Assembly: GCF_964355755.1 (NCBI RefSeq) | Contig: NC_092674.1 | Coordinates: forward strand, 11,346,001 to 11,410,000 | Direction of reading: 5' to 3' | Origin: Antedon mediterranea | Lineage: Eukaryota > Animalia > Echinodermata | DNA: 64,000 bases | Shown here: positions 1 through 61,085 of the stretch, in pieces | How the letters are laid out: each line of letters starts with the position of its first letter | Numbering within the stretch: position 1 is the first letter of the stretch | The notes under the pieces: generated by a model | What the model was told of the DNA's origin: nothing | The model's input: the letters and a program-made list of their open reading frames with translations, nothing else | Databases searched by the model: none | Position numbers and translations under genes: made by a program

Positions 1-1589
1 ATTCTTCTATCTATCTATTCCACTAATTAATGTAAAAATTTATTATGTGGAATCCAATTACCAACATCCAAATAAGTTTTTGTTTACTCTCCTCACTTTA
101 TCATGGTTCTCCATTCACTACCTGTATGCCAGTCACCTTTGCAAATTTCTTTTTTTTTTGTACACAAAGAACTCACATGATCAGCTGAATTGAATTCACT
201 ATACCAGACAGATCAGAAAGCAATCAGGTAAAACTTAGGTTAAATGTATCAAAAATCTTTTGTAAAGTGACAACCAAATTGAAGTAACAGGTTTTGAATT
301 TGACGTCGTGCACTGACTGAATGTGTTAATGGCGCATCAGTTCACAGATTTACGAGTAGCAAACACGTCTTCCAGTAAATGCCCATAGGCTATTGGATGT
401 GGCGTTTGTAATCTTGTCACAACGGATTGATTAAAATCATGATTAAAAACAAAAATACATAAAAATGTCTAATGAGCATATTATAATTGGATATCGCATG
501 GGTTACTTGTTATTTTAATGATACACCTGCAAGCCTTTACAATTATAAAAGTCAATTAGCATTTGTAAAACAAAAATCAAACAGAAAATGACAATGAGTC
601 TGTAGAAATTTATTCTGAAAACATTTTCAGACTTGTGTATAGTATAGTATACTGCAAGATTTTTAATAGGAAATAGGAGGCAGCAGACAATAATTTAAGT
701 TTAAATAAGGTAAGGTAGTCTTCATTGACACCGTTCAAATGCAAACCTTTCAACTCTCCCAATAATCGAGTCATCCTCCCATTAATGTATTTTGTCGCCC
801 TCTATTGTTTGGTTAGAAGACTTGAACCTGTACTGATTTTATAGATGGTTTTCCGTTCAGAGACACTTGAGTTATCAGAATGAAATGAACTTCTTCTACA
901 CAAGCCAGATGTATACTCTGACTTAAAGCTTCAGTTTAAAGTTCTTATCTGAGAAGACTTGAACCTGTGTCAATTAATAGTTATGGTTTCTTGTGCACCT
1001 GCCTACCAATTGGCCAGTCAACTCATCAGAACTATGTTTGGCAGCAGAGCTCAGTAGAAGCGCATTTGCTAACAAAAAATTAGTATTATGTCATTCATCA
1101 AAGTTGACGTACTTAGTAGGTAGTGATAATAGATAATAATTGCCAATTTTTGGTATTGTTTTTTAAATTTTAATTGATGCTGCTTACTATAAGAACATAT
1201 CAATTTGATAACCTCTCTCTTGTACTTCTGCCCTTCATTGGTTACCTAACAAATTGAATTGATTCTTGCTTACAAGGCACGGCACAGCCTCCAACTAGCT
1301 ACCTATCTAAGCTTGTGCAGATTTACTTATGTCAGACTCCAAATACTACAGAGTTTTTATAATTTTGCTGTGGCAGCTGCAAAGCTGTGCAATTCCTACC
1401 ATTTTCAACAGACATTTATTTATTTATTCTTTCTTTTGACTGGATTGCATTTTCAGTTAAAGCCCCATTCCCTACGTTTTTTAGATCTAATTTAAGATCA
1501 CAAACTATATTTAATGTAAAAATAATACTATATGGTCCTATTGCGATAACTTTTTTCGTCTTTAAACGGTTAAAAATGTGAAAAATAAG

Positions 1590-1950
1590 CCGATTCTAAT
1601 AATTATAGCGGCCCGCTATAAATCCCAAAATGCATTGCGCGCGGATTGATATTTTTGTTTTTCACCTGTAATTCGCTCACTTTTCGATCGATCGTGAGGC
1701 CAAAACAAATGGAAGACTCCTAACTTTTCAGCGAAAATACCGGGTTTTCCCCAATTTGTATCAACGGAGTCTGGCAAAAATAGAAAGACAATTAATACAG
1801 CAACTATACAACGTCAGGCTAGGTATATAGGTCGCATACGATGTTCGTACGTTTACCGATGTTTACCAGCTAGGCCTACAAAACTAAGCCTAGCTAGGCT
1901 AGGCCTAAGACCGTCCACGAGAGGTCGATCGCCGCGAGCTACTTAGGTAG
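1590..1950. promoter_or_regulatory. CpG-rich promoter-like island followed by AGGCCTAG-rich tract
   Basis: Local CpG enrichment (gcggcccgc, tgcgcgcgg, cgatcgatcg) in AT-rich DNA and clustered (T)AGGCCTA motifs at about 1810-1910; no associated CDS identified. Confidence 0.3.
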
Positions 1951-4900
1951 TGCATTGTTTCTCACTTTTTATCATAATTTACCATAAAACGTACATTTAA
2001 GACAAGGAATGACATGGTTTAATGTTTTTAAAGTGATATATATGTATTATTTTCCAAAAAACGTCCAAAATTGCAGGGAAGGGGTCTTTAAACGCAGTAC
2101 TGCTTTCCAAAATGGTCCAGTTATAAGTTTAAAAGTAAATAAAAATTATAACATAAATACACAGTAGGCCTAATTTAAAACATATATACAGAACAGTTAA
2201 AAACAAATAAAATATAAAAAAAAAAAAAATGTAGGATCACTTGGATGACATAAGAGTTGCTATATTTTTGAGTTTATAAATATGTTTCCCAGTTACTTTT
2301 GTTCTAGTTTCAGTTGGTAACACATTGTGTTGTTTGAACTATTTTAAGACACAGTTGAAAACTTTTCTGACAAGCATTAAGATCTAACATTTTCCTGTCG
2401 TAACTTGAAAGCCTACCTAAGTTATATGCAATTGCAAAAATTAACTATTTTGTAATACATCCATCGAAGAAAAAGATAGAGGAAGAATTGGCAACAAATT
2501 GGCACCTTTCTTAACAGATCATGTTTAGAATTTTCAACCATCACTATCTGTCACGTTAGACAATGGTTTTTGGTTAAACATTTATATTTTTCTATTTATA
2601 ACTGTAAAAGTGAATAACTTTATTATAACTTCAAAATGGCCTATTCAAAGTCTGATTTTATTAATCTTTATTCTTCATGTTTTTGGAAAGAAAACTTAAT
2701 ACATCTTTAATACAGTACAAGGAATTCCTTTTTCTGATATTTGATTTGAAAGAAGGCTTAGTTTCTAAAAACATCTTGTGTCAGGCAAAAGTTTGAAGAA
2801 AATGAAATATAAATAAGTAAAAAGAAAAATTACAATATATAGCATAATTAGTGGTGACCTTGAACATGAAGTTGTAATGTAATTCTTATTATTATTAATG
2901 TCAATGACATTTACTAAAAGTGAATGATGTATTGAACCTAGTCATTAGATACGCTTAATTAGTATCAAGCTTTTGAACAAAACTACACGTAGAACAAGCT
3001 TCATAAGATTTCACATCGCATGATTTAGTATAGTAGTGAGGTTAAAGGGGTAAATTTTTTATTCTATTACACTACAGTGATCAGTACACTGATGAAATGG
3101 AACATTATATCATATTATATTGCCTGCTTATAGGTGAAATATAAGATTTGACATCCATCAGTGATTTTTAATGAATATATATTTTCCTGAAGCTAAAAGC
3201 TGAAAGAAATAAAAGTTCTGAGAACAAAGTTTCGGTAAAAATAAGAGTAATCATCAAATTAAAAAACAAACTAATTTAACTGGCTAAAAGTTTTACCAAA
3301 TGAAACAAGAATGATGAAAGAGCTAAATTGCTAAAAACATGTAAAAAGCCTGCAATGTAATCGAAGTATATTTAACAGTAATCTCAACTCCCTTTATTTT
3401 TGCCAAACATCATACCCAGGCCACCTACAACTAGTCTGTATGGAATACAATTTGATATGAACTATAGGAATTGCTATAAAACTCAATTTGAAAAAAATTT
3501 GACTCTCAGAAACAAGCTAAAAACATAAATTTACACATGGTATGTACACTACCGCTACTTTATAAAAATGAGAGTTTATCCGTCATATAAACCAATAATA
3601 ATATATTAATAAAGAACCATAAAGCATTGTTAGTAATCTCATAGGTTTACCACAGGTTGATAAAGGAAATAAAAGACGTTCACATCTATATAGTTAGTGG
3701 CTAATTAAGACCATAGCCTTATTTATTATTTTATTTATTCAACTTCTCACTAACACTGTTAGTGAAGGATCGGGACCAACAGGTGGTAAACACCTCTAAA
3801 ACGGTCCAGTCCCAATTTCACAGTTTCTGTGTGTGACAAAGGTTCAACGCTTACTCGCTCCATGGTTCTGGTGGTAGGACGATTCTTCTCTAAGGATTCT
3901 AAGGACTTTAAACCGTAGGTCTAGTGTACACAAAATGCATGAACATGATGTGAAACTTGTAGCATGTAGTGAAAAGCGCAACATATAGCCTACAGTGATT
4001 TCACTACAATGATTGGTGGAATATTATTGTATTATTGTACTGTAGTTGTACACAAAACGGTACTATATAACTGTAGATTTTTACTCATTACTAAAAAATT
4101 ATGTTTGTCGGCCTACTAACAAAATACTTCATTAGCACTGTACATGTGATGAATACGTTAAATGCTTAAAAACTTTATGTTTAATTCAGATACACTCTGT
4201 ATGTCATGGGTTAATAGGAAAGGCCTTTACAACGAACTTATGGATTTAATGGCCATCATATAACCATTAAAAGCTAGTCTCTCCAGCTGCATCACACTAT
4301 ATAACCATTCATTTTGCAAACAGATTATAAATTGCCTCATCTCCAAACATCTCTAGGTTTATTATCAACAATTTCTTTTAAATGTTACATAAATAATCAA
4401 TTAAATTATCAAATAAATTTTATGAGAATATATAAAAATGCTGTTCATAGATCATTGATCATCAAGATAATTATTGATCATTTATAAAATGATTCATTTT
4501 CAATGTTTTTTATTCATTATTTATATGAATGTATGAATGAATTGGAGGAATATTTCATGTTCTATTTGAACAGGGTGGAGTCATGAGGATGAAATTTAAT
4601 TATCCCAATGCAATGAACACAGTACAAAACATTCATTATTTGTTTTGTTTACTTCTGTTTTAAAGTAAACTTTTATTTTATTCAAGTAATACAGTAGTTG
4701 ATTCCATCTTTATTAATGTCGTACAAGGCTAGGCCATTCAAAAAGGCCGTGCTAAGATTTTGGTTTTTTTAAACTATTTATTTTGTCTTTTTCTGTGGAA
4801 TAATTGTTATTAAATTTGAAAAATGGCCTATTCAAGGTCTGATTTTAATAATTTTCTTTTTTCAAGTTTTTGGGGGACAACAAATCATTAATTAGGTTAA

Positions 4901-5409
4901 TCTCAGCACAATTTTAATATATTTTATTCTGGATTAGAATGGCGATGGGTAATTCTATTCGGTAGATTCCAATTTGTTTTCTCGGCCACTTGTATCAGGT
5001 TTTTAGAACATAAACCTCTTGGTCTAATTCTTATCTTAAGAGACATTAGAAAAGTGCAGATTACACTGGGAATAAATTACAAACTTATTCTTTGGCCTGA
5101 TTGATTGCGATAAGTTTATCCTCAAATCCATGTCTTTATCAATGTTGAAGATATTGAATTTAGTCTAGTAAACATACTGATAGTATGATTTAACTAAACC
5201 TTACTAGTACAGTCAGTAATATTATCTCATGCAGTAGATTACCCTTAAATCGTGAGGCGTCGTCGTCGTGGCTTCCTTTTGTACTGTTTATTATAGTAGG
5301 CACACTTTTCACAAAAGGATAAGAAAACACAATAAACGAACCTGGATTGAAATTGAAAAAAAAAAAAACTTCTTAGATTATGTAATTGTTCGCTATGAAA
5401 TATTAGATT

Positions 5410-5530
5410 TCTCAATCTGGATCTCAATGGTGATACAAAATTACATAAACAAAAAGCTAAATCAAAATGATAAAATAAAACAGCCACAACAAGTTGAAGA
5501 GCTTTCGGGCAACACCATTCCTTCTTCATT
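5410..5530 (-). repeat. Diverged fragment of a hammerhead-bearing repeat (same family as 60690-60851)
   Basis: Shares ctggatctcaatgg..gatacaaaa..aaaagctaaatcaaaa..cagcca..gagctttcgggcaacac with 60740-60840; the minus strand reads ATGAAGAAGGAATGGTGTTGCCCGAAAGCTC, a degenerate hammerhead core. Confidence 0.6.
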
Positions 5531-5796
5531 ATACAAATTAATATTTTCATGAAGACTGGCCTTGATTTAATGATGTATTGTACCCCAAGACATAAAAAAC
5601 AAGAGCAATCAGATTTTCCTGTGCTGATGACTTCCAAAATTACAAATGATTAAGCCTCGTTTTCAAATTTATATTGTTTAAAATACCGAATCAAGGTGTA
5701 GTATAGTAGTAAACCAAAGAATGTAATATTTATCATTAAAATTGTGTAATTTGCAACAACAAAAAACAATTTAATCATCATTGCACAAACTAAAAG

Positions 5797-7095
5797 CGAT
5801 CCATAATTGGAATTCTGGTTTAGTATTGATTGGAGTCTTGTTGCAGGTATTATACCTTCCATAGGGTGGTGGTAAATGCGGAAAAGATCCATCTTGTAGC
5901 TTTGACGTATGACCTAAAATTAGTAAAACACTAAAAATGGTCCATAATTTGAATCCTGGTTCTGTATTGATTGGAGTCTTGTTGTAGATATTATACCTTT
6001 CATAGGGTGGTGGTAAATGTGGAAAAGATCCATCTTGTAGCTTTGATGTATGACCTAAATTTGTAAAACACTAAAAAGTGGTCCATAATTGGAATCCTGG
6101 TTCTGTATTGATTGGAGTCTTGTTGTAGATATTATACCTTTCATAGGGTGGTGGTAAATGTGGAAAAGATTCATCTTGTAGCTTTGACGTATGACCTAAA
6201 TTTGTAAAACACTAAAAAGTGGTCCATAATTGGAATCCTGGTTCTGTATTGATTGGAGTCTTGTTGTAGATATTATATCTTTCATAGGGTGGTGGTAAAT
6301 GTGGAAAAGATCCATCTTGTAGCTTTGATGTATGACCTAAATTTGTAAAACACTAAAAAGTGGTCCATAATTGGAATCCTGGTTCTGTATTGATTGGAGT
6401 CTTGTTGTAGATATTATACCTTTCATAGGGTGGTGGTAAATGTGGAAAAGATCCATCTTGTAGCTTTGACGTATGACCTAAATTTGTAAAACACTAAAAA
6501 GTGGTCCATAATTGGAATGCTGGTTCTATATTGATTGGAGTCTTGTTGTAGATATTATACCTTTCATAGGGTGGTGGTAAATGTGGAAAAGATCCATCTT
6601 GTAGCTTTGACGTATGACCTAAATTTGTAAAACACTAAAAAGTGCTCCAGAATTGGAATCCTGGTTCTGTATTGATTGGAGTCTTGTTGTAGATATTATA
6701 TCTTTCATAGGGTGGTGGTAAATGTGGAAAAGATCCATCTTGTAGCTTTGATGTATGACCTAAATTTGTAAAACACTAAAAAGTGGTCCATAATTGGAAT
6801 CCTGGTTCTGTATTGATTGGAGTCTTGTTGTAGATATTATACCTTTCATAGGGTGGTGGTAAATGTGGAAAAGATCCATCTTGTAGCTTTGACGTATGAC
6901 CTAAATTTGTAAAACACTAAAAAGTGGTCCATAATTGGAATGCTGGTTCTATATTGATTGGAGTCTTGTTGTAGATATTATACCTTTCATAGGGTGGTGG
7001 TAAATGTGGAAAAGATCCATCTTGTAGCTTTGACGTATGACCTAAATTTGTAAAACACTAAAAAGTGCTCCAGAATTGGAATCCTTTGTCTGTAT
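5797..7095. repeat. 141-bp minisatellite, about 9 copies
   Basis: Unit marker gtccataattgg/ctccagaattgg recurs at 6081, 6222, 6363, 6504, 6645, 6786, 6927 and 7068 (period 141), with more diverged copies at about 5800 and 5940. Confidence 0.97.
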
Positions 7096-7949
7096 TGCCT
7101 CCAGAAGTTAATGGAGTCTTCTGTGACCATATCTATACTGTGGTTTAGATTTGGTAAAGATCTTTCTTTTAGTTTGATGTTATACTCAGCTGCTAAAACA
7201 CACACAGACACTTGCAAACAAATATCACACAAACAATATAACCTCCTTGGTGGAGATAATAAAGATGATCATGATAATATAGTAGTTTTTATAAAAAGGA
7301 AAAATAAACTGTAAAATTTAACCAAAAACCTGAGAGACAATTGGCTTCTAGTTAATTAAATAACTTTTTAGTCAAAGTAAATAACTATAGTATAATATAA
7401 TGTGACATTTAAAAAAAATTCTTTAAAGAACAAAATTATCTTTAAAATTCTTTTTAAAGGGAACAAAGTGGAACTTAATTATTCTAGATTAGTGAGACAC
7501 CACAACACTACCATGATTCAAATAATCTTTAATTAAGATATAGATAGTTGTAGCAGTACGTAATTCTAGTTTAATCGATGTTTTTTAAATCTACATCAGT
7601 CCTTATCAAAATGATGAAAGAAAACCGCTACATATTATTTAAGCTAACTAAAAATTGATGACAATACAGATTTTCAGAAAGGATTTGATTCAAAGCCAAT
7701 TTGTACTATACTAATCATGGGTTCTGAAAAAACTGTATTGTTTTCAGAATTTTACTAATTTTATTTTAATTTATAAACTAAACCAATGTTTATTAAACTT
7801 GAATCTGACGAGCAGAGTTCTCACGTATCCGCACAGTATAGGATATCACGACATACCCAGTAGTCCTTTGAGTGAACAGCGCCACCTACCGTTTCAAAAT
7901 TTGTTATCCATTTTTTTGTCAAAATGAATAACTATTGAGTACAAGTTAT

Positions 7950-10080
7950 TATATGAGAAAATTATAAACATAATGGTTTTTAGTTTAAATTTAATGAGAA
8001 GTTATTTATTTAGATATAACACTTGGGTTCATATACTTGGTTATGGTAGGGGAATATAAATTACAATGTTTACATTTAGTGACTAGGGGTTTTTGGGGTA
8101 AAAAACGTTAATAAGTAAATATACTGTAGTTTTTACTAGATTATTTGTAGGGTGGTTCAGGAAAGAGGTTTAAAAAGTTAAGTTTAGAAATACATAGGAA
8201 ATAAATTTTAAAATGGCCTAATTATAATGTTTAAATCAGATTATGTAGGGTTAGGTTTAGTTAAAAAAGTTTGAGGTAGTTAGTATACTAATATTTTTGT
8301 ATAGGAATGGTTAAAACATTTATTTCTTAAATATGACATGTAAGGAATGATTAAAATTGTTTGTTTTTTTTATAATTTGTGGGAAATATTTTATATTAAA
8401 GAAAGACTTAAACACAAGTTAATGTTTATATAATTAGGGATTTGATTTTAGGAATGATTAATTAGTGTTGAAAAGGAATGCGTAGGACAGAATCTTAGTT
8501 AAAATTTAAAATGTGATTGTAGTGATCAATAAAAATAGTAAATTAATGTCATTTAATATTGAGTGTTTATTCAATACTTTGTCTATAGTACAAAACATTT
8601 TTAATAGAAAAAATATAACTCAAAATGAATAAAGCTATAGAGTGTACTATTATGAAACTGTATAATATAATCTATTTTTAAATGTAAAAATGTCTACAAA
8701 AAATATTTAAAAAACAGAAAATTGTAGTAAACAGATAAACGATATTCAGTATAATTTTTAAAGATATTAAACCTTTAACTTAATACGTGTGATATGCTGT
8801 AAGGTAGTTATGTAATCTTTTACTTGTGCAACATATTTGTTTTGTATTTGTTGTAAGTTTTTGTGGTTAAATTGTTGGTTCTGTTTTATCAGTTGTTTTA
8901 TCAAACATTGTTTTAATAAAAAAGGTTTGCTTATTATAATTATTACTGGTGACCTTTTTCTTTGGATTGTGTTTAAATTGTATCATACTGTATGTTTATT
9001 AATGAATTTAAGACTGTATCCTATCTCCTTTAATCCTAATGAAAAAAGGGTGGTAATGTGTTGAAATTCTTGCAAGATAGTAGATAGTAGATTGTATCAG
9101 TGTGATTCAGTTTTGATGATACTTTTAAATATTTCGGGGTTATGATTGGATGTTTTATAGATGTATGTATATTTTTGGTATGGTTTTTGATATATTGAGT
9201 AGTGTATTTTGTTTGTTGAAAGTGTTGTGTAGTTGATGGAAATGTGTGTGTCCAAATATATCATATTTGTGGTATTGAAAGTAAAGTTAAGTGGAATATT
9301 GTGTGGGTATATGTTGGAGATGGATTTAATGAGATTAGGAGAACTCATTTGAAGGTTTTTAATAAGTGCGTCTATGTACCGGGTGAATAAGAAGTTTGAA
9401 GGGTTAAATTCTTTTATTGGTGTCTTTGTACTTCTTAGTACTATCTTTTGTTTTTTCCTGTAATCTTTGGTATTCTTCTTTTATAGCATAGTTGATTTCT
9501 TCAAGTGCGTTGTTGTTGACGTTGGTAATTTCTCCTGTGTTAACGTCGATATTATAATTTTTATATTAACAAGTTTGTTGTCTACCATTCTGAACTGTAC
9601 ATTATTCCTGTTATTAAAAATAATTGTAGGACCGTTTGCAGCTTAAAATTTCCTTGTTGAAAGGATTCTTTTTTGTCATGGTGTATTCTTTATTCCATTC
9701 GTTGATTGACGCGATTTCGTTTATTTTGAAGTTAGAATGTATACCATGTTCTGTAAAGAATTTAGATTGTTGTTATTTATAAATGCAATGTATGTTGTGT
9801 TTAGTTGAAAAAAAATTTTTTTTTTCATTTAAATAAATTTTTAATATTAAATAAAAAATAAATTTATACAGATATCGTTCTTAAATAATGGATAGTAAAT
9901 AATGTATATGGTAGATAAGAAAGGAAAAAAGATATGTAAATTTTGATAGATTTAGTGTGTGGGGTCAGGTTATAATATAGGTGTATATAGTTTTTGTAGG
10001 CTAGTAAATTCATAATGAATTAATATTTTATATATGTATTTCGCCTTATATGGAATAAGCTATCGTTACTATCTTTCTGG
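7950..10080 (-). mobile_element. Highly decayed Penelope-like retroelement
   Basis: Minus-strand fragments: IHYEFTSL (motif A-like, about 10020), FLFTRYIDA (RYIDD motif, about 9385), IYLDTHISIN..IYQKPYQKYTYIYKTSNHNPEIFKSIIKTES (PLE thumb, ORF 9097-9348), LKEIGYS, LFPEPP linker (about 8160), CKHC and IITCT remnants; strong strand-asymmetric base composition. Confidence 0.75.
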
Positions 10081-11099
10081 TCTTGTTTTTAAACTCATTA
10101 TTACTTGTTGTCTGAAATAAGTAGTGTACTAACCGCTTGCTCCAGAAAGTCCATATGTGCGGCACTCATATTCATAATCACCAAAAGCGAAAATCTCTAT
10201 TTTCTTTCCACTGAAAATATAAAAGTACAATATAAAAGTACAATATTTATTTATTTTAAAGATATGCTTTAAGTTTAAAACTCCCTGTTTTTGACGTGTG
10301 TATAAAAAAGTGATTTAGTTTAGTAAGGTAACATCTTGAATCATTCACTTACTTCCACACCATCTTTTTAAGTTCTTCAACTTGTTGCCGAATCCTTTCC
10401 ATTCCTGTTTGCAAATTATATTTTCCTCCGATAACAAATGGTAACCGTGTTCTGTAGTGCATTTGGTCGTTCGACATTTGCAATTTGCAATATAAACTTG
10501 AATGTGCCAACCCCTTTGTACCCTCTAAGCTTTATCCAGATTTTATCTTCCGGAATCAACCAATCGTGCCATGTTAGCATGTTAAGACTGAAAGGAAATA
10601 CATTTTCTTGTTTAGATGACTTGTTTTCTCTATTTTGGGAACGCTAAGATTATAAATACAACAATAAATATCAAATAATTATTGTCACCTTTCTTGTTTG
10701 TCTAACAGTTGACAAACCTTTCCTTTTAGGCTTCTAACAAATCCCAGTGGGACATCCGTCACCATCATAGCATTGGTTCTTTCAAGTCGTCTTAAAAATT
10801 GGTCAGCTCATGGCGCTGTTTCATCCTCAACAGCGTCCTCTTCCGCTCCACTGATTATCAACCTAAGTTGTTTAATCTGTAAGATTAACATATTATTTAA
10901 ACACAATTTATTCAATTTATCTTGGGTTCACTGGTTACAAACTATAACTATATAAAATTATTTTATCTAAACAAAAATGTTACAAATTGATCTTCTTCTT
11001 TTGGTCTTATTCGATGCCACATTTGATGGCACTCGAACATTGGGAATTTGTAAATAATTGACAAGACAAAATAATAATAATAAATACTATTCAAAATAT

Positions 11100-11950
11100 A
11101 TTATTGAAAATGTTTATCTATATATAAATTTACGTAAGGGCAAAATTCGGTAAATCGCGCCTTACTTTTAGAATTTTTACTCGATGGTATGTAAAGTTGG
11201 TTCGTACTTTCGGTACTGATTTTAACCACCTGATGTAACCCTGTTTACTAATTAAATTGAGTTAGATAATTAGTTATTGACGATTAAAACGAATTTAGGT
11301 TCAACGATTTGCCCCAGATAGGGGTGTTTTCCGATCGTGGTAGGCCTATACACTGTCTAATGGATGTCCGTCTTGAAAAATACCCGCCACAAAAATGCGA
11401 GGAGGCTTCGCATTTTCCTATCTCCTCCTATGATAATTGTTTTTAATAGCTGAAAACCGGTTGAACAGCTCGAGTACAGTATCATAATGTTGAAGACAGG
11501 CCGATTTTCTTAAAAAAATACTATTTTGATAGATTTAATATACGTTTATACAAATGTATTGATTTGCGATGAATGGAACATTCCAATCTCTGTGTCGTTC
11601 CACAAGTGTCTATTCCCTCAGGCGTCGTAAAGGAAAGTACTGTATACTCATAACAGAAATTCGATCCATTTTTTTTTTCAATCTGTGCTGCAGAGGTTGG
11701 ATACAATTTTTTTTAAACGGATAATGAGCTTTTTCAGTCGCCGTAATTTAATATTTATTACCGATTAAATCGAATTTATGATTTGCCCCGAATAGAGGTG
11801 GTTTTCATAAATTGTTTAACATTATATATAAACATACGTCGTAGTGTATCGTTACATGTACTGTACTATTTCAATCGACTACGACCGTGATAGTTTCAAC
11901 AAAGTATTACATCGCAATGTTTTACTGTGTTTAGTGGTATATTATTTGTA
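11100..11950. repeat. Dispersed non-coding repeat with a second, inverted copy at about 57110-58060
   Basis: tttacgtaagggcaaaattc..ttggttcgtactttcggtactgattttaaccac..gttgaagacaggccgattt and tactatttcaatcgactac match the reverse complement of 57640-58050 and 57115-57240. Confidence 0.85.
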
Positions 11951-12096
11951 AAACATGTTAATATTTCATTACAAAATAAAGAATATATTTAAAAATTGAC
12001 ATTCTAACTGACACAAGTTACAGCAACAGACAAATAACATTGCACAAATAGATATCTGGCAGTGCAGATATAGACTGATATGGCACATCAATCAAC

Positions 12097-12121
12097 CAGG
12101 GAGGTATAAGATACCTCCCTG
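12097..12121. mobile_element. 25-bp palindromic P-superfamily-like footprint inside the RING exon
   Basis: CAGGGAGGTATAAGATACCTCCCTG flanked by aatcaac/aaccaac (7-bp duplication with 1 mismatch). Confidence 0.65.
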
Positions 12122-12896
12122 AACCAACTAAACAAGAAGGACAAGTCATAACACTAACATTGACAAAAAAGAGCTTAACACACATGTTACAAGCAACATG
12201 TTGACAAGGTAACACTACAGGACATGAACATATAACACATGAATGGACTCACAGAACCAATGATGCTGTAAGAATTGGAAATGTTGTCAATTGATGAGAA
12301 ATGTGTGCCCATTGATCTATGTATGTGCCATCCTTCTCTTGCACTCCGGAGCCCCTAGTCCACTCTTAATTTTCTTTGGTCTTCCACCTTTGAAAACAAA
12401 CAAGAAAATATTATTAATAATGATCATCTGGTAAGTTAAATGTTATTTTTGTTTCTTTCTTTATGTCGAGGACACCTTTGGAAACAAGCTTATAGGGTTA
12501 TCCTCTCATCTTGTGTTATGTATATATTTGTATGTGATAAAGAGCAACAAATAAATAAATGAATAAAAACCTTTTTTAAACTCATCCTTGCATATCTCGC
12601 AATTTTCAGTGCGTTTGTTTGGAAGCCATGATTTAAGTGGAGCAGTTTTTTTCTGTGATACATTCTTCTTTCGGGTACGGCTTAACGATCCTTAAGGATC
12701 AAAACAAGCAGGATTTGTTTGATATTTAGTCTCTGATTTCAGGTGATATGTTTTTTAAGTGTTCCTTTAATGCTTCCTCGAAAGATTCACTTTCTTCAAT
12801 GTTCTGTATATTTGGAGGTAGTTCGTTCCAGTCCCTAGTTGTTCTCGTCATATATGAGAACTTGTACGTATCAGTGCGTGTTTGGTGTTGGATAAA

Positions 12897-15800
12897 TAGT
12901 CCGGTGGCAGGAGGGGGGAATCACCACCCGAAAGGGGACAAATTGCCATCCAACTTTTCTAGACTAGAATGTTCCGTAGATTACGAATATGGAAGGTAAT
13001 CGATCAGGATAGGAAGCGTTTTCGAGATATATGAGGTCAAAGTTCAAAATTGACCAATTACAACAATGTATTATGTATATGTATTATAACAAATTTATTG
13101 AAGCACAATTTGGTCTTTTATTACATTTTTATGATTATAAGTGTCTATTCAATCACCTTATGAAAAAAAAAATCCTTTGTGATTAAGGGTCAAATGTCAA
13201 TATTGACCAATCATAGAACGTACCTAAAAAACCAAATAAAAACTAATATTTAATAAAAATTGGATGTTTTCTCATTCTGTTAATCAATCATACGCATTGT
13301 AAAAGAGCGAATACATAATTTCATCAGTTGACATAAGGTCAATTTCATCAGTTGACATAAGGTCAAAGGTCAACATTTGAATACGCGTATTAGTTAACAA
13401 ATAAATGCAAAGTTGTCCAAACTATGATATTGATGGTTTTACAAGTAATCAAATTATTTGATTAGTAAAGTGTAAATGTTATTTCATTATAATTTTGATT
13501 AATATAATTATAATACTGTATTTAATCAAATCAGACTTCGATCAGGATAGGAAGCGAATAGGAAGAAAAAAGGGGTCAAAGTTCAAAATTGACCAATTAT
13601 AACAATGTATTATATACATATGTATTATAACCAGTTTATAAAAGTTCAATTTGGTCTTTTAATATATTTGTATGGTTATAGGTATTGTATGGTGTTATTC
13701 AGTCGCCTTATAAAACAAATACTTTGCAATTAATTAAAGGTCAAATGTCAATATTAACCAATCACACAATTTGCATTTAAAACCAAATAAAAACTAACAT
13801 TTAAGACAAAATGTTATGTTTTATAATTCTGTTAAGACATCTATCAATCATACACAATCAAAAGAGCACATTTATCATTACACAAGTTGACATGGGTCAA
13901 AGGTCAACATTTGAACAAATGATATACTAAATAATGCAAAGTTATTCAAACTATGAGATCGATGTTCATAAATGTAATCACGTTATTTGATCAGTGAAGT
14001 TATGGTATTTTTATATTTTTTCTAGTGCGCATTATTTTAAATGTATTAATATAATACTGTAAAATAAATAATAAAATTAATATGACGATTAAAATGTTAT
14101 GATGTTAAAATGTTGCGCTGACCTTCAATGCTTTGCCACTATACAGTTGCATTTATTAGGGCTACAATATTCGTCTTTGGAAAATAAACTACTATTCATC
14201 AGAACCAGAGAATACAAATTTGTAAGGAGAGGGCATAGGCAGATCCAGGTGGCCAAACTCAATCCACAACTCACTACACAGACAGACCACAATTTTTATA
14301 TAGTTTGGCCCATACAGGAAAGGGTTTCCTGTATACAAAGGATTCTAAAATAACCCATGTGGATTTGCCCGAATGAACCCTCTAAGGACCCTTTTGGGAT
14401 CTATATGTGTGCTATGGGTACCTGTGGGGTAAATAGTTCATAGATGAACTATGGAATAAAACTAAATGTGCACCCTCAATCTTTAAATAACATTTATGGA
14501 TTTGCCCAAATGAACCCAAGGGCCGATCCTTCATGGACCTTTCGGGGTTCTCTATGTGGGGCTACAAGAGACCCTATATTGGAAATAATGTATGTGGTGT
14601 GAAAATGTGGGTTCATAGAGATATAATAAATATCCCTGTGCACCCTCGATCATCCATAAGGAACATTTTATGGATTTGCCCAAATTAACCCAAGGGCCGG
14701 TCGTTCTCCATGGATGGACATTAAGCCCCATAATGGAAATATAAGGGGTGACACTGTGAGTTCATATAGACAGGCGTGGCCCATGAATTAAGCTGCCTGT
14801 GCACTCTCGATCCTTAAGAAAAATTTATGGATTTGCCCAAATTAACCCAAGGGCCGGTCCTCCATGGATGGACATTAAGCCCCACAATGGAAATATAATG
14901 AGTGACACTGTGGGTTTATATAGACAGGCACATGGAATAAAGCCGCCTGTGCACTCTCGATCCTTAAGGAACACTTATGGATTTGCCCAAATTAACCCAA
15001 GGGCCGGTCATCCATGGACATTAAGCCTCATAATGGAAATATAAATATAAGGGGTGACAATGTGGGTTTATAGACAGGCACATGGAATAAAGTTGCCTGT
15101 GCACTCTCGATCCTTAAGGAACCGATTTGGATTTTGCCTAAAATGAAACAACAGCAGGTCATCTATTTAGACCCTTCTGTGGTTCTCTACTGTATGTTCA
15201 GTTCTACATTTGGCTCCTGTATCGGATCAATGCATTTGGCTACATAAGCTACTGTGTTAGAAATATATCGGGTAACTAAAACTGTAGGTTCCAATATTAA
15301 GCCATGGGAAAAGCCTGTCTGTGCACTCTCAATCCTTTTAAAAGGAACCCATATGGATTTGCCAAAATGAACCAAGTGTAACTTCTGAATTCTCTATGAG
15401 CCGTACATTCCGTTTATTGGAGATTCATGGATACCTGATTGAAATTGCTCAAATATTTCTGAAAGACATTGTACTGTATAGTAATAGTATTATTCCCCTT
15501 CCACACCTCTTTGAATTAAATCCGCCCTGATAGGCTCTTATGTACAGGATTTAAAGGCAATAATCACACTTGTATTTTTCAAACAGTATAATCTATTAGA
15601 TTGAATAAAAATATCTATTATAAACAATTTGCCGTTAGAAATCTCTGTGCCATGTCGTTATTTAGATGAGAAAAACAGGTCAAAGGTTAAAAATACAGAA
15701 AAATAGGTGTTTCAGTCACTTTTTGAAAAAAAGTTTCATTATGGCAACTATAAACATATATATTGTGAACAATTTGACACCACAATTGGCTCCTTATGAC

Positions 15801-16298
15801 AAATATTTATTAATTTATGTTTTTATAACCTTATTCAATTATGTCAAAGGTTAATAACCACACTTCCGGTCATTTTCAAGCAATATCATCTGTTATACTG
15901 AATATAAATGTATATCTTAGGAACAATTTGCTCCTATTTTTAATTCTCTCCGACCTGCCGTTACTTAGATATAGCAAAAAGGGGTCAAAGGTCAAAATTG
16001 CTAAAAATGGGGTTTCCGGCCAATTTTTCAAAGACATTTCTGTTAGAGCTAATATAAACATATACATTGTGAACAATTTGACACCAAAATTATCTCACTA
16101 CGTCCAGAATTTCCAGAGATATAGCATTTTTTTATATTGGTCAATTTTGAACTTTGACCCCTTATATCTCGAAAACGCTTCCTATCCTGATCGATTACCT
16201 TCCATATTCGTAATCTACGGAAAATTCTGGTCTAGAAAAGTTGGATGGCAATTTGTCCCCTTTCGGGTGGTGATATCCCCCCTCCTGCCACCGGACTA
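12897..16298. mobile_element. Non-autonomous 3.4-kb DNA transposon with ~165-bp TIRs (Academ-like termini)
   Basis: TAGTCCGGTGGCAGGAGGGGGG..AAAATTGACCAAT at the left end is near-identical to the reverse complement at 16135-16298; termini TAG..CTA; 3-bp TSD AAA confirmed by in-frame restoration of the flanking LINE; internal ~540-bp duplication (13001 vs 13539); no transposase ORF. Superfamily is inferred from termini and TSD only. Confidence 0.85.
14355..15380. repeat. Tandem array of ~140-230 bp units inside the TIR element
   Basis: tatggatttgcccaaa(t/a)..aacccaagggccg recurs at about 14360, 14496, 14669, 14827, 14976, 15128 and 15352. Confidence 0.85.
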
Positions 16299-16726
16299 AA
16301 ATGATTTGCTGGTTGAAGATCGACGGGTTTGCCTTTGAGCCGGCGCCAGATAAGAATGGAGTGGCAGAGCCAGATGGTGTAGCAGAGATGACAGAAAAAG
16401 GGGGATATGTTTTCATCAATATCATCTCTGTTAACACAGTACTGCTCCACTAATTTGGCATGGGCACCATCTTTATTGATTTTTGCATTGCACACCATGC
16501 AGAGTTTCCATATCTGTAAAAAAAATTTAGCAATTTTTTAACAATTATTATCTATTATACATTGTTAAAAATAAATGTTAACAAAAACTTTTTGTGTAGT
16601 TTCATAGTATATAAAAAAGGTCTAATGCTGGTGAGCATGATATGCCTAACGTTATGTTACTCATTATATATGAACTCAAACTATACTTTGAAAGAAACGT
16701 ACATACATATGTATATATATATATAT

Positions 16727-17347
16727 GAAAAAAAATACTGAAAGATGAGGGCGTATCAATTTGATCTCTGTTGCGCGTGCGTACAACTGAGGACTAGTGC
16801 TGTTCCGCCGTACCACGCCGAGAATGTTAAAGAGTCGTTATCCAATCGAGTTCGAACAATACCATGAAAGCCCCAGTGGTCTAATGGTTAGGACATCTGC
16901 ATATCAAGCAGGCGGTCCGAGTTCGAGTCTCGGTTGAAGCAACTTTTTCTCATTCTCACAGATTTCCTCATCTTTATCGTTTCAAATTAATTAATTAAAT
17001 TTCAGTATATCACCGGGCGGTTTAGAATTAATGTTCTTTGCCTGATTTGTTTATATATATATATTAATGTTCATTGCCTGATGTGTTTATATATATATAT
17101 ATATATTTATATAAACAAATCAGGCAAAGAACATTAATTCTAAACCGCCCGGTGATACACTGAAATTTAATTAATTAATTAGAAACGATAAAGATGAGGA
17201 AATCTGTGAGAATGAGAAAAAGTCGCCCCAACCGAGACTCGAACTCGGACTGCCTGCTTGATATGCAGATGTCCTAACCATTAGACCACTGGGGATGGTA
17301 TTGTTCGAACTCGATTGGATAGCGACTCTTTAACATTCTCAGCGTGA
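16727..17347. mobile_element. Fold-back pair of a tRNA-like-containing repeat within (TA)n tracts
   Basis: Plus copy about 16727-17052 and inverted copy about 17112-17347, bounded and separated by (TA)n; further copies at 60280-61045. Confidence 0.85.
16870..16941 (+). ncRNA. tRNA-like segment (A box/B box), repeat-embedded, probably not a decoding tRNA
   Basis: GCCCCAG-TGGTCTAATGGTTAGGAC-A-TCTGC[ATATCAA]GCAGG-CGGT-CCGAGTTCGAGTCTCGG-TTG; cloverleaf is foldable, but the loop gives an unusual ATC anticodon with A32; other copies at 17224-17294 (-) and 60415-60486 (+). Confidence 0.7.
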
Positions 17348-18846
17348 ATATATATATATATAATTATTGTACATTCCTAACACTAGTAACAGGGTAGGTA
17401 GTGAAATTTTATATAACATAATTTCCGCCACTTACAGCTTGGTTTAACATATACAAGACAATTACAACAACCCAGAAACACTTAAATTATGACGAAACAG
17501 ATAAAGATTGGAATTAAAAATGTCGATATGGGGATGGGCCTCATGGACTAAACTATTATAAGAAACTTAATCTACTGATGTCACCATTTTTAAGAACATT
17601 GACTCTACTAAAGGGAACACAAAGGATATTGTTATTTCTTAAATTACGGGTGGGAAAATGTGCAAATATGCCAATTTGTGAAAATAGGTTATAATAAATA
17701 AATTCAGTTACTTACTGTTATCTCGGTAAATCTAATTGGAATGAAATAGTGTTATTCTGTGCAAAAACGCCGGCAAAAATAAATTTCAAAACAAAGCGTG
17801 TCCGACACGTAGGCACAGTAATCCTGCCACTGGCGGCGCTATATTACCTGCTTCTGTAGTACGTGTTCCCAACTTGCTATTACCCTGTATTAATTTCTAT
17901 AGGCCTAGTCTGGATAAAAAGATTACAAAATTCCGTAATAGAAAATGTGAGTAGTTTTTTACGTTGCTCCATGCTGTGAAATTGCGTCGCCCAGTTTAAC
18001 CCTGTACTTCTAATCAATACTGCGTTTTGAATAAGCCTCAGATGAGCATTAGATTCTTGTGTTATAAGTTCTTTGCTATTATCAAGTACTAGGTTCTGGG
18101 CCTAGCCTAGGCCCAGCCTTAATCATTTTACTATTCACCATTGCCAAATAGGCCTTGTTAGATAAGGATTTTTGGGGATGCAATGGGTATGCAAATTGCA
18201 AAAGGTCTACATTTTAGGGTCTTTAAATATGTAAAATATTAAAAATGATATAGGCCTAGGCCAACTCTAGACTAGTCGTGTCGTCTAAGTCAAATGTAGG
18301 GGATAAGTTTATTACCTTAGACCTAGGCCTAGTTGAGAATTTTTATTACGATTTTCAATTCACACCATATATAGGGCTAGGCCTAGGCCCTGCCTAGACA
18401 GAGCCTAGCCTACTCTATTCAAACCTGAAACCTAGACAGTTAGTAATACATGGATGGATATGATGGTGTCCGGTGGGGGATAGTTTATTACATTTAGTTT
18501 AGCTATTAAGATCAAGAACTGTCAATATAGAATTTCATTAAACACATTTTTCATTTTGTTTTATATACATTTTTCTGTCATTTACGTCTCAACATTTTTA
18601 ATAATAACTCCACACTCCAAACAAAACAAATCATGCTCCCTGGCCTGCCTGCCATGGCCTGGTGTGTGGGGTAGGCTCTAGACTAGGCCTAGGCCTAGGC
18701 CTACTAGCTAGTAGGCTAGTAGGCCTATCCACATGGAGTGGGGATATCATGTATTGTAGGCCTAGGCTATTTACCGAATTCTTTGTAGTCGCCCTTCTTT
18801 TCCACTTAAAATAATGATTTCTATAATAATGTATGTAAATACTTAC

Positions 18847-18917
18847 AAAATTAAACTTCTAAAATACGTATAAAATAATAAGAGTTGGACGACCGACAAC
18901 ACCACCGCCGCCGCCAT
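18847..18917 (-). other. Candidate first exon (ATGGCGGCG.. to GTAAGT donor) with promoter-proximal AGGCCTAG-rich intron
   Basis: Reads MAAAVVLSVVQLLLFYTYFRSLI then gtaagt; dense AGGCCTAG tract at 18080-18770 immediately downstream; no confidently linked later exons. Confidence 0.4.
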
Positions 18918-19871
18918 GCAGCGCAAACAATAATCAGAAAGAAAAATAGGTCAAAAAAAGTTTGGTTCTGAAAGAGGGCGCTATTATTATTTTATTATTT
19001 AGTTGAATTGTTCATTCATAAATTACTAATGAACAGTGAAATGGTGACGAAAACGTTGCGCAATGTTAAGCGTGATGCTGTTAGCCATCATTGGTACAAT
19101 TTTTAAGTTGATACCAATGATGTTGACACCAGTCTACCACGATGAGGTAGCATCTCCGACTTCAGACTGGAAATTTTGTTTTCTTTCCAAATTAGCCAAA
19201 TTGGTGAAAAAATATTTGAAAAGAACTGTTAGGACTACTTTTGCAATTTGAAATGTGATAATTTAATAATAGCTTTATAAATAATTAATAAGCCCAATAA
19301 ACACTAATTTAATAATTATGTGTTTTCATTTAAAATTAACACGGTTTACGTTTAATTCAGTCAAATTTAGTGAAACTTATATAGGCCTATATTTGAAAAT
19401 CAGATTTTGTAGTCTTGAAATATAACTATTAATATAGTTACTTAATGTTGTTTATTTTAGATTTTATTATTCTATTACAAAATAAGGAATGGTTGGTTAT
19501 AATATTTAATAGACTAAAACTCGTCACTGATGACATATTGTTTTAACCAGGGATTTGTTAATTTGAAACAACTTCCTGGTAAAAAACTATAGATTTAAAA
19601 CTACTTACGCAGTGGTACTTTTCTCATGCAACTCCGATTCTAGAGCAGTAAACATTTATTTTGGAATGAGAGAACACTGTCGTACAATCAGGATGGGGTG
19701 TTTAAAAAAATGCCTGGGTGGATGTTTCTTTAACCCATGCTTTAACAAACCAAGGGTTTCTTCAAATTTTATTTTAACTGGTGAACTCTATACACCAACA
19801 GCTGCGAAAAGTGTTATCATATGGAATGTATTTCAGCACATAGTGCATGGCACTGAACATTGTTTTTTTTT

Positions 19872-21290
19872 AAGCTTGGTTCCCACTAGGACGCAACGCA
19901 AGTAAACGCAAGTAAGTGTGTTGACCAATGACAAGCAATAGTTCGAATAATCCATCGCTTGTGATTGGTCAACTCACTTACGTTGCGTTACGTCCTTGTG
20001 TTGCGTCTCTAGTAAAAACTAAGCATTAAGGATGAGATAGGGGAGAGAATATGTACAGTATTCTATTGAAAGTGAGAGCCATGTTTTTTTAAACGCCTAA
20101 CGTCCGATGTACGATTCCATCCATTGACCCTGTTAAGCACATGCCAGTGTTCATCGTACTACCCCAGTCTACACTCACTACTGGCGTCTTGTGGCCTACA
20201 TGGATTCTAGTGGGTTAATAGCATAGTGACCCTTAAACGTCCATCCATTTTTGTATGACAAGATGAACGTCATTCCATTATGTCTGTGATCATTGGTATA
20301 GAGAATTCTAAGGTTAAAAGGTCAATTATTGAACTTTGATCTTTTGACCTTAGATTTGTTGTTTTAGTAGTATGTACAACAAATTATACAAATATATGTA
20401 TTTTTTAATTTGATACTTTTCCTGCCATGGGGTGACTTCGTGGCACACTTCAATTTAAAGATATTATAAATTTTTTTTTTTTTTTGACTCGTCACAATTT
20501 CATGAGCATAGTGTGTGATACCACTACCAAAATTAACATCTGATAAAAGTGAGAGTAAAGCTTGGTTCCCACTAGGATGCAACGCAAGCGAGTTGACCAA
20601 TGATAAGCTACACATTGTCATCAAATAATTTATCGCCTGTAACTGGTTAAATCCCATACGTTTCGTGTTGCGTCTCTAGTGGGAACCACGCATAAATATC
20701 ACTTGGTCACAGTTTAGTACGTTGCAACCAAAATACTTTGAATAGGAGTGTTAAACACAAAATTTAAAAAGCAGAGGTGTTAACTGATGAGTATTTGACT
20801 GGGCTGTTTTGAGCAGATAATCAGCAGATCTAGCTCCTCAAACTCCTTGCTGTATATATGCCAACAGTGGGAGCAGATCACTGCAAGGTGTTTTTTAGTG
20901 TAAGTTAAATACATCTATTGAGTCAAATAAATATCTTAAAGGGTAGCTCCGAGTTTACAATTTATATTTTTAACAATAGGTCCTGTAACACCAATTTGTT
21001 ACAAAACCTGATTCACCCTTTTCTGAAAATATAGGGTGTTATTATAAATATAATTATAAATCCTTATATTGTATATTAAGCAATATGAATTTGAAACCCA
21101 GAATTCCCCTTTAAAGGTAGAAACAAGTTTTTTCATTGTTTTATTGTACATATGGGGAATTCCCTTATACGCATACAATAAGCTTGGTTCCCACAAGGAT
21201 AAAAGTAATTTGACCAATCATGATCATTCAAATTATTTTATTGTGATTGGTCATTTCACTGCGTTGCGTCCTAGTGAGAATCAAACTTTA
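19872..21290. mobile_element. Three ~110-155 bp PIF/Harbinger-like MITEs (about 19872, 20558, 21180)
   Basis: Each begins AGCTTGGTTCCCAC(T)AG, contains ttgaccaat..attggtca, and ends in a degenerate CTAGTGGGAACCAAGC. Confidence 0.7.
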
Positions 21291-22247
21291 CAAGGGATTT
21301 TCCTAAAGTGATCGATTACGAATTTGATTTAAGAAGAAAGCAATTGATTGATTTTGTAAACGGAGGGTAATTATCTTTATATTATGAGTCGTATATATTT
21401 ACATTTAATAATATTTTGCTACTTATTGCATATAAATATGCAATTCACTGTATATTGCTCTTTAGGAGTATGAGAATGGTACCAAGAAATGTATTTTCCA
21501 GAGCCTCTGTATTTATCATAGTCACTGGGATTTATTATACTCTTATCTCCAAATAAACAAAACATAAAATCTGGTAAATTATTATAATAATGTATTTATG
21601 ATAAAATTTAGTTTTTTAAGTTTATTAAAATAACATTAAACTATAAGATATTTTTTTTGTTCTGTTTAATTTTGTGCCATTTGATTTTTGAATGACTCAA
21701 AAAAACAAAAATAAAATACTGTGAACCACGTTTTCCGAAGTGACAATTAAATATAGACTCTTAATTTTGATGTTGATCGATTGTGTTTTTTGTCAATAAC
21801 TTACTGGTATGTAACCTAAATAAAATCACTTCAGCAGGACTCGAAACATTTGCTTTGGCAAAGAAGGTTATTTATATTTTATTGTTGGTTAAATTTGAAT
21901 ATAATAAGAAAACAATTTCAAACAAAAATCAACTTTAGTATTTGTTTACTATAGTTTAATTCATATATCATTTAGACTAAATTCTATATTTCAATTTAAT
22001 TCAAGGTATTTCAATTAAATATACTGTAAATTGTAATTAATTTACAGTCAAAATGTCCATAAATCCCTAGGATTTTAATTAGAAGGTTAATAATACTTAA
22101 TTTTCTTTTATTTTATTCCATTACTACAAACTGTATGCAATAACATTTTCGGTATTTTTATTGGATGAATAAGCCCACCACAACAATAACCAAACTAAAT
22201 TCAAAATGTGCACATTCCTTAACTTGTAGAGTTTTGTCTGTGACTAA

Positions 22248-28345: not shown

Positions 28346-28584
28346 CTGTCACATGTCAAGGTATCAAATATTTATAAATGTTTAGGCCTAATGTAGCTTA
28401 CGTAGGCCAGGCTAATTAAACATTTTATTTATATGAATTAGAATCCTGAAACCCCCAACTTACGAATAATATAATAATAATCAATGTCACTATTACAATT
28501 TTGAATTGATAACTGGAGTAATTTTAGTAGTATACAACATGTAGGCCAAGGGGAAGGCTGTCTGTGGGTAAAGGGGTGTATTTG

Positions 28585-57559: not shown

Positions 57560-57579
57560 CATGAAGGTATACCTCCATG
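57560..57579. mobile_element. 20-bp palindromic P-like footprint with 7-bp TSD
   Basis: gttaaac|CATGAAGGTATACCTCCATG|gttaaac. Confidence 0.8.
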
Positions 57580-60122: not shown

Positions 60123-60149
60123 GCTTATCCCAGAATATATATATATATA

Positions 60150-61045: not shown

Positions 61046-61085
61046 TAATATATTATACATATTAAGTTATTTTTTTAATTGCAGG

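What the first reader, a model, noticed from the sequence alone, without database searches (positions are those of the whole stretch)
10134..16513. Hidden spliced transposase with RAG1-like architecture (N-terminal Zn domain + RING + DDE core)
Seen: seven scattered minus-strand segments join in a coherent order. KLCMVC..D..P.FCHLC plus W.P....C..C, then GGRPKK (phase-correct G|GT splice 12571>12387), a C3HC4 RING, a basic VPSNVASNKTKRRRS segment, and a core IWIKLRGYKGVGTFK..FAFGDYEYECRTYGLSGAS. Known: LCRxC..HP..FC..C..WxPH..CxxC followed by a RING is the RAG1 N-terminal region, shared with Chapaev and N-RAG-TP transposases. Inferred: the two core motifs sit where the first two catalytic Asp of RAG1/Transib/Chapaev lie (first one here apparently mutated to Tyr), but the core does not read like canonical RAG1 (KESCDG, GTGYDEK) or Transib. 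This may be a poorly described intron-rich lineage linking the RAG1 N-terminus to a distinct core, relevant to the origin of V(D)J recombinase. This copy is dead, 3'-truncated by a Penelope element, and no RAG2-like partner is visible.
Basis: partly seen in the sequence, partly recalled or inferred. Interest (0 to 1): 0.85.

Follow-up and report, generated by a model that had tools for sequence, protein, structure and literature searches.

The report
Dead RING-bearing Chapaev transposase fossil
This is the broken front 60% of a jumping-gene enzyme from the already described Chapaev family, a distant cousin of the antibody-gene recombinase RAG1; it is ordinary genomic debris, though a feather-star relative looks intact and likely moved recently.

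Summary
Ten tblastn hits on the minus strand from 16504 to 10132 match residues 11-589 of one 975-aa Antedon mediterranea protein, in order, with GT-AG splice sites. The core matches Pfam DUF1280 above its cut-off, which the literature equates with Chapaev transposases. A Hydra protein carrying the published Chapaev-4_HM N-terminus has the same two core motifs. Chapa domain + RING + core is the layout Kapitonov and Koonin (2015) describe for two Chapaev subgroups. The first catalytic Asp is Tyr here (Asp in 45 of 45 relatives). The copy also has frameshifts, deletions, a LINE-like piece, a nested 3.4-kb TIR element, and no C-terminal 386 aa. A model of a relative folds like RAG1 (Z 26.5, 14% identity), as expected for this group. 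No RAG2-like gene was seen. The scan has reported RING-bearing Chapaev pieces before on other DNA. Residual interest: the Antedon relative has near-identical copies on three contigs and an intact DDE, so it is a candidate for Chapaev biochemistry.

The parts
16379..16513 (-). First coding exon piece: likely start ATG at 16511 (acceptor AG just upstream), frameshifting deletion of about 8 codons, then the first half of the Chapa/NZD zinc domain (CxxC ... FCxxC); P0001 aa 1-2 and 11-56
   Evidence: 22/41 identical
16299..16378 (-). 5' part of a LINE-like 3'-end fragment inserted into the Chapa exon
   Evidence: one open frame runs across the site of the TIR element; the LINE label rests on recalled motifs
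12897..16298 (.). Nested non-autonomous TIR element, 3402 bp, 174-nt arms 95% identical, ends TAG...CTA, 3-bp duplication TTT; high copy
   Evidence: contig depth 37,000-188,000 against 130-580 on most exon bins in run X2, and a joint 12893 to 16299 in runs X5 and X6
12668..12893 (-). 3' part of the LINE-like fragment
   Evidence: raised depth in bin 12672-12902
12571..12667 (-). Second half of the Chapa domain (WxP, CxxC; the His of WxPH is lost), ending at a phase-1 donor; P0001 aa 58-89
   Evidence: 14/31
11984..12387 (-). Exon with GGRPKK linker, C3HC4 RING and the start of the following zinc finger; several frameshifts; P0001 aa 89-216
   Evidence: Pfam zf-C3HC4 E 0.045, below cut-off
11121..11998 (.). 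Very high-copy repeat, also at 57049-58039, at the place where P0001 aa 217-272 are missing
   Evidence: a 1046-nt contig of organism B links the RING and core exons over a much shorter distance (record 28)
10988..11062 (-). Basic segment, P0001 aa 273-297; this part of the family profile aligns with the RAG1 nonamer-binding region
   Evidence: 16/25
10689..10876 (-).
10353..10587 (-). Core exon (DUF1280, RNase H strand 1). First catalytic Asp is Tyr (codon 10520-10518); two Gly also changed; frameshifting deletion near 10437-10420; P0001 aa 432-513
   Evidence: E 5.9e-7, 29.8 bits, cut-off 25; 37/50 and 17/22
10134..10210 (-). Last surviving exon with the second catalytic Asp (GDYE); P0001 aa 564-589
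   Evidence: 23/26
8800..9977 (-). Decayed Penelope-like RT sequence that replaces the rest of the element (lower boundary approximate); copies in organism B leave the window sequence at 9977-9982

Best explanation
This is a dead, 3'-truncated, intron-containing copy of a Chapaev cut-and-paste transposase gene of the RING-bearing kind, covering residues 1-589 of a roughly 975-residue protein. Shown: domain order Chapa/NZD zinc domain, GGRPKK linker, RING, basic segment, DUF1280 core with the first two catalytic positions; disabling lesions; nested insertions. Inferred for the living element: one spliced gene between short CAC...GTG inverted repeats; the transposase binds the ends through a region like the RAG1 nonamer-binding domain, cuts with an RNase H-fold D-D-E site (P0001 D455, D574, E920) and inserts with a 3-4 bp duplication, without a RAG2 partner. 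The RING would act as a ubiquitin ligase or dimerisation module, by analogy with RAG1 (untested). After this copy landed it took point mutations and deletions, a LINE-like piece inserted in the Chapa exon, a TIR element inserted in that piece, and a Penelope-like sequence replaced the 3' end. It cannot make an active enzyme.
For: Ten collinear hits to P0001, 216 of 345 aligned residues identical over 12 pieces. DUF1280 above cut-off in the window and in 10 of 10 long relatives. DUF1280 = Chapaev transposases (PMC3985635). P0188 carries the Chapaev-4_HM N-terminus printed in PMC4411706 supplement 5 and has both core motifs. The Asp is invariant in 45 of 45 aligned relatives. Tree of 42 rows: window sister to P0001 (100/99) inside a 10-row echinoderm clade (96/91). 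A model of relative P0016 (pLDDT 84) matches RAG1 (Foldseek E 6e-16; Z 26.5, rmsd 3.5 over 452 aa, 14% identity), BbRAG1L (Z 24.4) and HzTransib (Z 22.8). The family profile finds nothing significant for the C-terminal half in the window.
Against: No CAC...GTG ends or target duplication could be found for this copy (one chance 12-mer pair), so two family hallmarks are unverified. The window core is only 34% identical to the one published family I could identify (Chapaev-4_HM) and sits in a different clade; Chapaev-1/2_BF and -1/2_NV motifs matched none of the 188 proteins held. The tree has no RAG1 or Transib outgroup. The fold evidence is for a relative, not for the window copy. No genome was available to count or compare copies.
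Confidence: 0.93

Rival explanations
1. An undescribed lineage that bridges Chapaev and RAG1: a RAG1-type N-terminus on a core that is closer to RAG1L than known Chapaevs are.
For: The model of P0016 scores higher against RAG1 than against HzTransib (Foldseek E 6e-16 against 2e-6; Z 26.5 against 22.8), and some alignments extend over the nonamer-binding domain. The echinoderm clade is well supported and separate from the Hydra Chapaev-4_HM clade.
Against: Identity to RAG1 core is 11-14%, against 34% to the Chapaev-4_HM equivalent over 125 core columns. The family profile gives no significant core match to RAG1 (domain scores -0.3 and 7.0 bits) or ProtoRAG (E 0.45). The published tree joins RAG1 with TransibSU, with Chapaev distant (PMC4411706 section 5). 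Z differences may reflect chain length and conformation.
Confidence: 0.05
2. A true RAG1-like (RAG1L/TransibSU/ProtoRAG) fossil that lost its RAG2-like partner.
For: Same N-terminal layout as RAG1: family profile against full-length RAG1 E 3.5e-14 and against the NZD structure 21WB E 2.8e-12. The closest relatives are from echinoderms, where RAG1L occurs.
Against: The core hits DUF1280 and no RAG1 Pfam family. None of the hits for which names were shown is named RAG1 or RAG1-like. TransibSU cores are over 30% identical to RAG1 and lack the RING; this family is at 11-14% and has the RING. No kelch or PHD match in 44 of the window's 46 ORFs of 85 aa or more (2 were duplicates).
Confidence: 0.01
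3. A chance mosaic of unrelated pieces (a host RING gene, repeats, a transposase scrap).
For: Most single pieces are short and have no Pfam hit of their own; over 4.5 kb of the span is other repeats.
Against: All pieces map in order to one protein at about 63% identity. One contig of organism B carries both the RING exon and the core exons (record 28).
Confidence: 0.01

Closest known systems
RING-bearing Chapaev transposases (Chapaev-1/2_BF, -1/2_NV, -4/6/7_HM; Kapitonov and Koonin 2015, PMC4411706; Pfam DUF1280/PF06918; CMC or CMCT clade)
   Same: Chapa domain, GGRPKK-type linker, RING and following zinc finger, DUF1280 core with the GGD[KH]G and GDY motifs; single gene.
   Different: This copy is dead and lacks aa 590-975 of its nearest relative. 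It belongs to an echinoderm clade, 34% identical in the core to the Chapaev-4_HM equivalent, that I could not match to a named family. Ends and target duplication not seen.
Antedon mediterranea uncharacterised proteins XP_071952536.1, XP_071955410.1, XP_071946486.1 (P0001, P0151)
   Same: About 63% identical over the surviving pieces, 72% in the core; same domain order; probably the same intron position before the GDYE exon (the P0001 model appears to retain intron sequence there).
   Different: Full length, DDE and zinc ligands intact, 974 of 975 residues identical between copies on three contigs; annotated only as uncharacterised.
RAG1 and RAG1L/ProtoRAG (PDB 9jpu, 6xnz, 6b40, 21wb, 1rmd)
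   Same: NZD + RING + nonamer-binding-like region + RNase H core in the same order; same fold in the model of a relative; GDYE aligns with RAG1 GTGYDEK and GEQGGES with the E962 motif in the profile alignment.
   Different: 11-14% core identity; no RAG2-like gene; core belongs to DUF1280.
Transib (HzTransib, PDB 6pqx, 6pqn)
   Same: Core fold (Z 22.8, rmsd 3.7 over 397 aa for the relative's model).
   Different: Transib lacks the Chapa and RING domains; 10-12% identity; canonical duplication is 5 bp.
N-RAG-TP of Aplysia (seen only as a passage in PMC8355894)
   Same: RAG1-like N-terminal sequence in a transposon.
   Different: No sequence was available to compare; the Aplysia Chapaevs in PMC4411706 supplement 5 have no RING.

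Membership tests
Chapaev (RING-bearing subgroups) | Chapaev-type DDE core (Pfam DUF1280) | tested here: met
   Window core E 5.9e-7, 29.8 bits against cut-off 25; 10 of 10 long relatives above cut-off; DUF1280 = Chapaev
Chapaev (RING-bearing subgroups) | N-terminal Chapa zinc domain | tested here: met
   Cys pattern aligns with P0001 aa 11-89 and fits the published alignment; relative P0016 hits RAG1_imp_bd above cut-off; both His ligands are lost in this copy
Chapaev (RING-bearing subgroups) | RING finger after the Chapa domain | tested here: met
   28/52 identical to the P0001 RING region; Pfam zf-C3HC4 only E 0.045; relative's model matches RAG1 RING 1rmd at Z 10.2, rmsd 3.3 over 101 aa
Chapaev (RING-bearing subgroups) | Core motifs shared with a published Chapaev family | tested here: met
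   P0188, carrying the Chapaev-4_HM N-terminus, has both motifs; 34% identity over 125 columns
Chapaev / CMC | [quoted passage not shown] | tested here: inconclusive
   In the window D1 is Tyr, D2 is present, the rest is missing; all are present in P0001/P0151
Chapaev / CMC | Terminal inverted repeats 5'-CAC...GTG-3' | tested here: inconclusive
   12-mer search of 16514-22000 against 1-10130 gave one pair, consistent with chance; the 3' end is lost
Chapaev / CMC | 3-4 bp target site duplication | not testable with these tools
   No element ends and no genome held
Chapaev | Nesting inside a named Repbase family in a core phylogeny | tested here: inconclusive
   Only Chapaev-4_HM could be identified among the hits; the window falls in a separate echinoderm clade; no outgroup
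RAG1L / TransibSU / ProtoRAG | Core over 30% identical to RAG1 core | tested here: not met
   11-14% in structural alignments of relative P0016; profile match to ProtoRAG E 0.45
RAG1L / TransibSU / ProtoRAG | Adjacent RAG2-like (kelch/PHD) gene | tested here: inconclusive
   No such Pfam match in 44 ORFs; a spliced or decayed gene could be missed and the 3' end is lost
Transib | Core-only transposase without Chapa or RING | tested here: not met
   Both domains are present

The most novel reading that the evidence does not exclude
The echinoderm RING-Chapaev clade to which this fossil belongs keeps the full RAG1 domain series (NZD, RING, zinc finger, nonamer-binding-like region, RNase H core) in one gene, is structurally closer to RAG1 than Transib is, and is still mobile in a feather star. 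It would then be the best living model of the single-gene, pre-RAG2 ancestor of the V(D)J recombinase.
Probability: 0.12. Interest if true: 0.55.

Novelty: new member of a known kind. Interest (0 to 1): 0.15.

Why it matters
The window copy itself matters little: it is a decayed member of a group described in 2007-2015 whose link to the RAG1 N-terminus is in print. The useful by-product is the Antedon relative: full length, catalytic residues intact, near-identical copies on three contigs, annotated only as uncharacterised. The 2026 NZD preprint states that Chapa-domain function in Chapaev systems has not been tested, and one search listed no in vitro Chapaev study. That protein would allow a test of whether a Chapaev cuts by hairpin formation like RAG and Transib, and of what the zinc domain and RING do on a transposase.

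Tried and rejected
No genome is held, so copy number, ends and target duplications could not be checked. Word-based homologue search with the core exon: nothing. Metagenome contig scan: 322 pattern matches, none confirmed. PDB sequence search with the first exon: nothing. The Atlas gave no answer. The profile search returned 12 proteins, all DUF1280, none RAG, so no outgroup was obtained. No RNA holder listed. Read-laying did not settle whether the copies in organism B keep the first Asp: no change at 10520 among the 40 of 64 rows shown, and a change in one of two contigs could fall under the 60% threshold. I first read the joint 12893 to 16299 as an empty transposase exon and a 7-nt repeat as the LINE's target duplication; one search showed both flanks are LINE-like sequence, so I dropped that reading. 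Row P0187 in the tree was mis-cut by my script and is ignored. The palindrome at 16814-17346 has CAC...GTG at its arm ends, but the repeat runs on past them in the second copy, so I rejected it as the transposon's 5' end. Yuan and Wessler 2011 is not held; Repbase Reports were not seen; the supplements of the NZD preprint, which hold Chapa alignments, were not seen and may bear on the type I/II assignment. A search for papers on TAG...CTA-ended elements listed nothing relevant.
Full report
Observation. A phmmer search with the 56-aa core piece (10419-10586) gave 416 hits at E 0.001 or better; the best, P0001, is 975 aa and 73% identical. It is an uncharacterised protein of the feather star Antedon mediterranea. 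tblastn of P0001 against the window gave 18 hits: 10 lie in order between 16504 and 10132 and cover aa 11-589 at 29.6-84 bits, and the other 8 score at most 23.1 bits. The best score in 20 shuffled windows was 21.6-26.6 bits. Piece by piece, 216 of 345 aligned residues are identical over 12 pieces. Introns have GT-AG ends in matching phase. In sequencing runs of a related organism B, one 1046-nt contig carries both the RING exon and the core exons (record 28). The pieces belong to one gene.

Anatomy and decay. An ATG GAA at 16511 matches the first two residues of P0001 and is followed by a frameshifting deletion that removes the first His ligand of the zinc domain. After FCHLCY a LINE-like 3' fragment is inserted (16378-16299 and 12893-12668); it reads as one open frame across the site of a later insertion (the LINE label is recalled from motifs). 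That later insertion is a 3402-bp element with 174-nt inverted arms at 95% identity and a TTT duplication. It is high-copy, and runs X5 and X6 show the form without it. The RING exon has several frameshifts. P0001 aa 217-272 are missing where a very high-copy repeat sits (11121-11998), and about aa 320-401 are deleted. In the core the first catalytic Asp is Tyr (codon 10520-10518); this position is Asp in 45 of 45 aligned relatives. A further frameshift removes aa 483-491. The gene stops after aa 589. A profile of 45 relatives finds no significant match to the C-terminal half in the window. Copies in organism B part from the window at 9977-9982, where Penelope-like RT sequence begins (29% identity, E 2e-5, to an RT ORF elsewhere in the window that has a weak GIY-YIG hit).

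What it is. The core piece hits Pfam DUF1280 above the curated cut-off, as do 10 of 10 long relatives. Majorek et al. 2014 state that DUF1280 corresponds to Chapaev transposases and place it in one clade with RAG1 (PMC3985635, passages). Motifs of the five other patterns tried (BF, 1_NV, 2_NV, 6_HM, 7_HM) matched none of 188 proteins. In a 42-row tree of the core, the window is sister to P0001 (100/99) within a 10-row echinoderm clade (96/91); P0188 is 34% identical and lies in a separate Hydra clade (no outgroup; row P0187 mis-cut and ignored). By a rough pattern test 11 of 41 relatives carry both Chapa and RING; many of the rest are partial models. So this is a Chapaev of the RING-bearing kind, from a clade I could not tie to a named family.

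Relation to RAG1. The family profile matches full-length mouse RAG1 at E 3.5e-14, through the N-terminus and nonamer-binding region, and the NZD structure 21WB at E 2.8e-12. The core domains are not significant on their own, but they align GDYE with GTGYDEK and GEQGGES with the E962 motif. An AlphaFold2 model of relative P0016 (pLDDT 84, pTM 0.62) matches RAG1 (Foldseek E 6e-16; Z 26.5, rmsd 3.5 over 452 aa, 14% identity), BbRAG1L (Z 24.4, rmsd 4.5, 451 aa), HzTransib (Z 22.8, rmsd 3.7, 397 aa), P element (Z 14.2) and Hermes (Z 9.1). It therefore works like a RAG1/Transib-fold transposase but is not a RAG1L or a Transib: identity is far below the over-30% of TransibSU, it has the RING, and no kelch or PHD match appeared in 44 ORFs. 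This relationship is known: the NZD preprint models Chapa domains and links them to RAG1 (bioRxiv 10.64898/2026.01.24.700457, part 1 of 6 and passages), and a 2025 paper groups Chapaev with Transib in a CMCT clade (PMC12730594, passages). By the preprint's ligand rule, P0001 would have a type I Chapa domain (my inference).

Mechanism. Shown: gene structure, domain order, lesions and nested insertions. Inferred from family knowledge: cut-and-paste transposition by a D-D-E RNase H site (P0001 D455, D574, E920), CAC...GTG ends and 3-4 bp duplications (PMC4079192, part 1 of 6; PMC3014272, passages; bioRxiv 10.64898/2026.08.26.747230, passages). The ends were not found for this copy. RING function is by analogy with RAG1 only. 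N-RAG-TP was seen only as a passage in PMC8355894.

Against my reading. Ends and duplication are unverified, the tree lacks an outgroup, only one published family was identified, and the model scores higher against RAG1 than against HzTransib, which leaves a small chance that this clade is closer to RAG1 than assumed. The state of the first Asp in organism B was not resolved.

Verdict. Real feature, correct anatomy, known group. Interest 0.15. The scan's own notes list RING-bearing Chapaev pieces in other genomes (unchecked here); a search by sequence found none. The lead worth keeping is the Antedon protein: 974 of 975 residues identical between copies on three contigs, all catalytic motifs present. 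A paper search for Chapaev with transposase, hairpin and in vitro listed only one review.

Noticed in passing
P0001, P0151 (Antedon mediterranea): Full-length RING-bearing Chapaev transposase with intact DDE; 974 of 975 residues identical between copies on three contigs, so likely recently active; annotated as uncharacterised. A second family, P0016, is 41% identical.
   Followed up: partly
window 12897-16298: High-copy non-autonomous element with TAG...CTA ends, 174-nt arms, 3-bp duplication and an internal 150-bp tandem array (14635-15122). The ends recall Academ elements (from memory, not confirmed).
   Followed up: partly
window 16781-17346, second copy 60293-61045: Palindromic repeat with two tRNA-like arms (ARAGORN tRNA-Asp(atc) calls; Rfam tRNA 48-50 bits), probably a SINE-derived or foldback element rather than real tRNA genes.
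   Followed up: partly
window 11121-11998, second copy 57049-58039: Extremely high-copy repeat (contig depth up to 2.4 million in run X2, against about 300 on single-copy parts).
   Followed up: partly
window 58947-60167 (-): 407-aa Penelope-like ORF piece with RT motifs and a weak GIY-YIG hit.
   Followed up: partly
window 28572-30130 (+) and 34600-35468 (-): LINE reverse-transcriptase remnants (RVT_1 E 7e-18 and 9e-15 for the first; the second by eye only).
   Followed up: no
window 60966-62624 (+): 553-aa single ORF with a B-box zinc finger and a weak NHL hit; TRIM-like gene or retrocopy.
   Followed up: no
window about 41000-53500: Roughly 4.0-kb unit repeated three to four times in tandem (identical ORFs at 43222, 47235, 51248).
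   Followed up: no
window 5792-7097: 141-bp tandem array, 9.3 copies, 96% matches.
   Followed up: no
P0110, P0169 (Branchiostoma lanceolatum): Gene models named ST8SIA1 that join a DUF1280 core to a sialyltransferase domain; probably a gene-model fusion.
   Followed up: no
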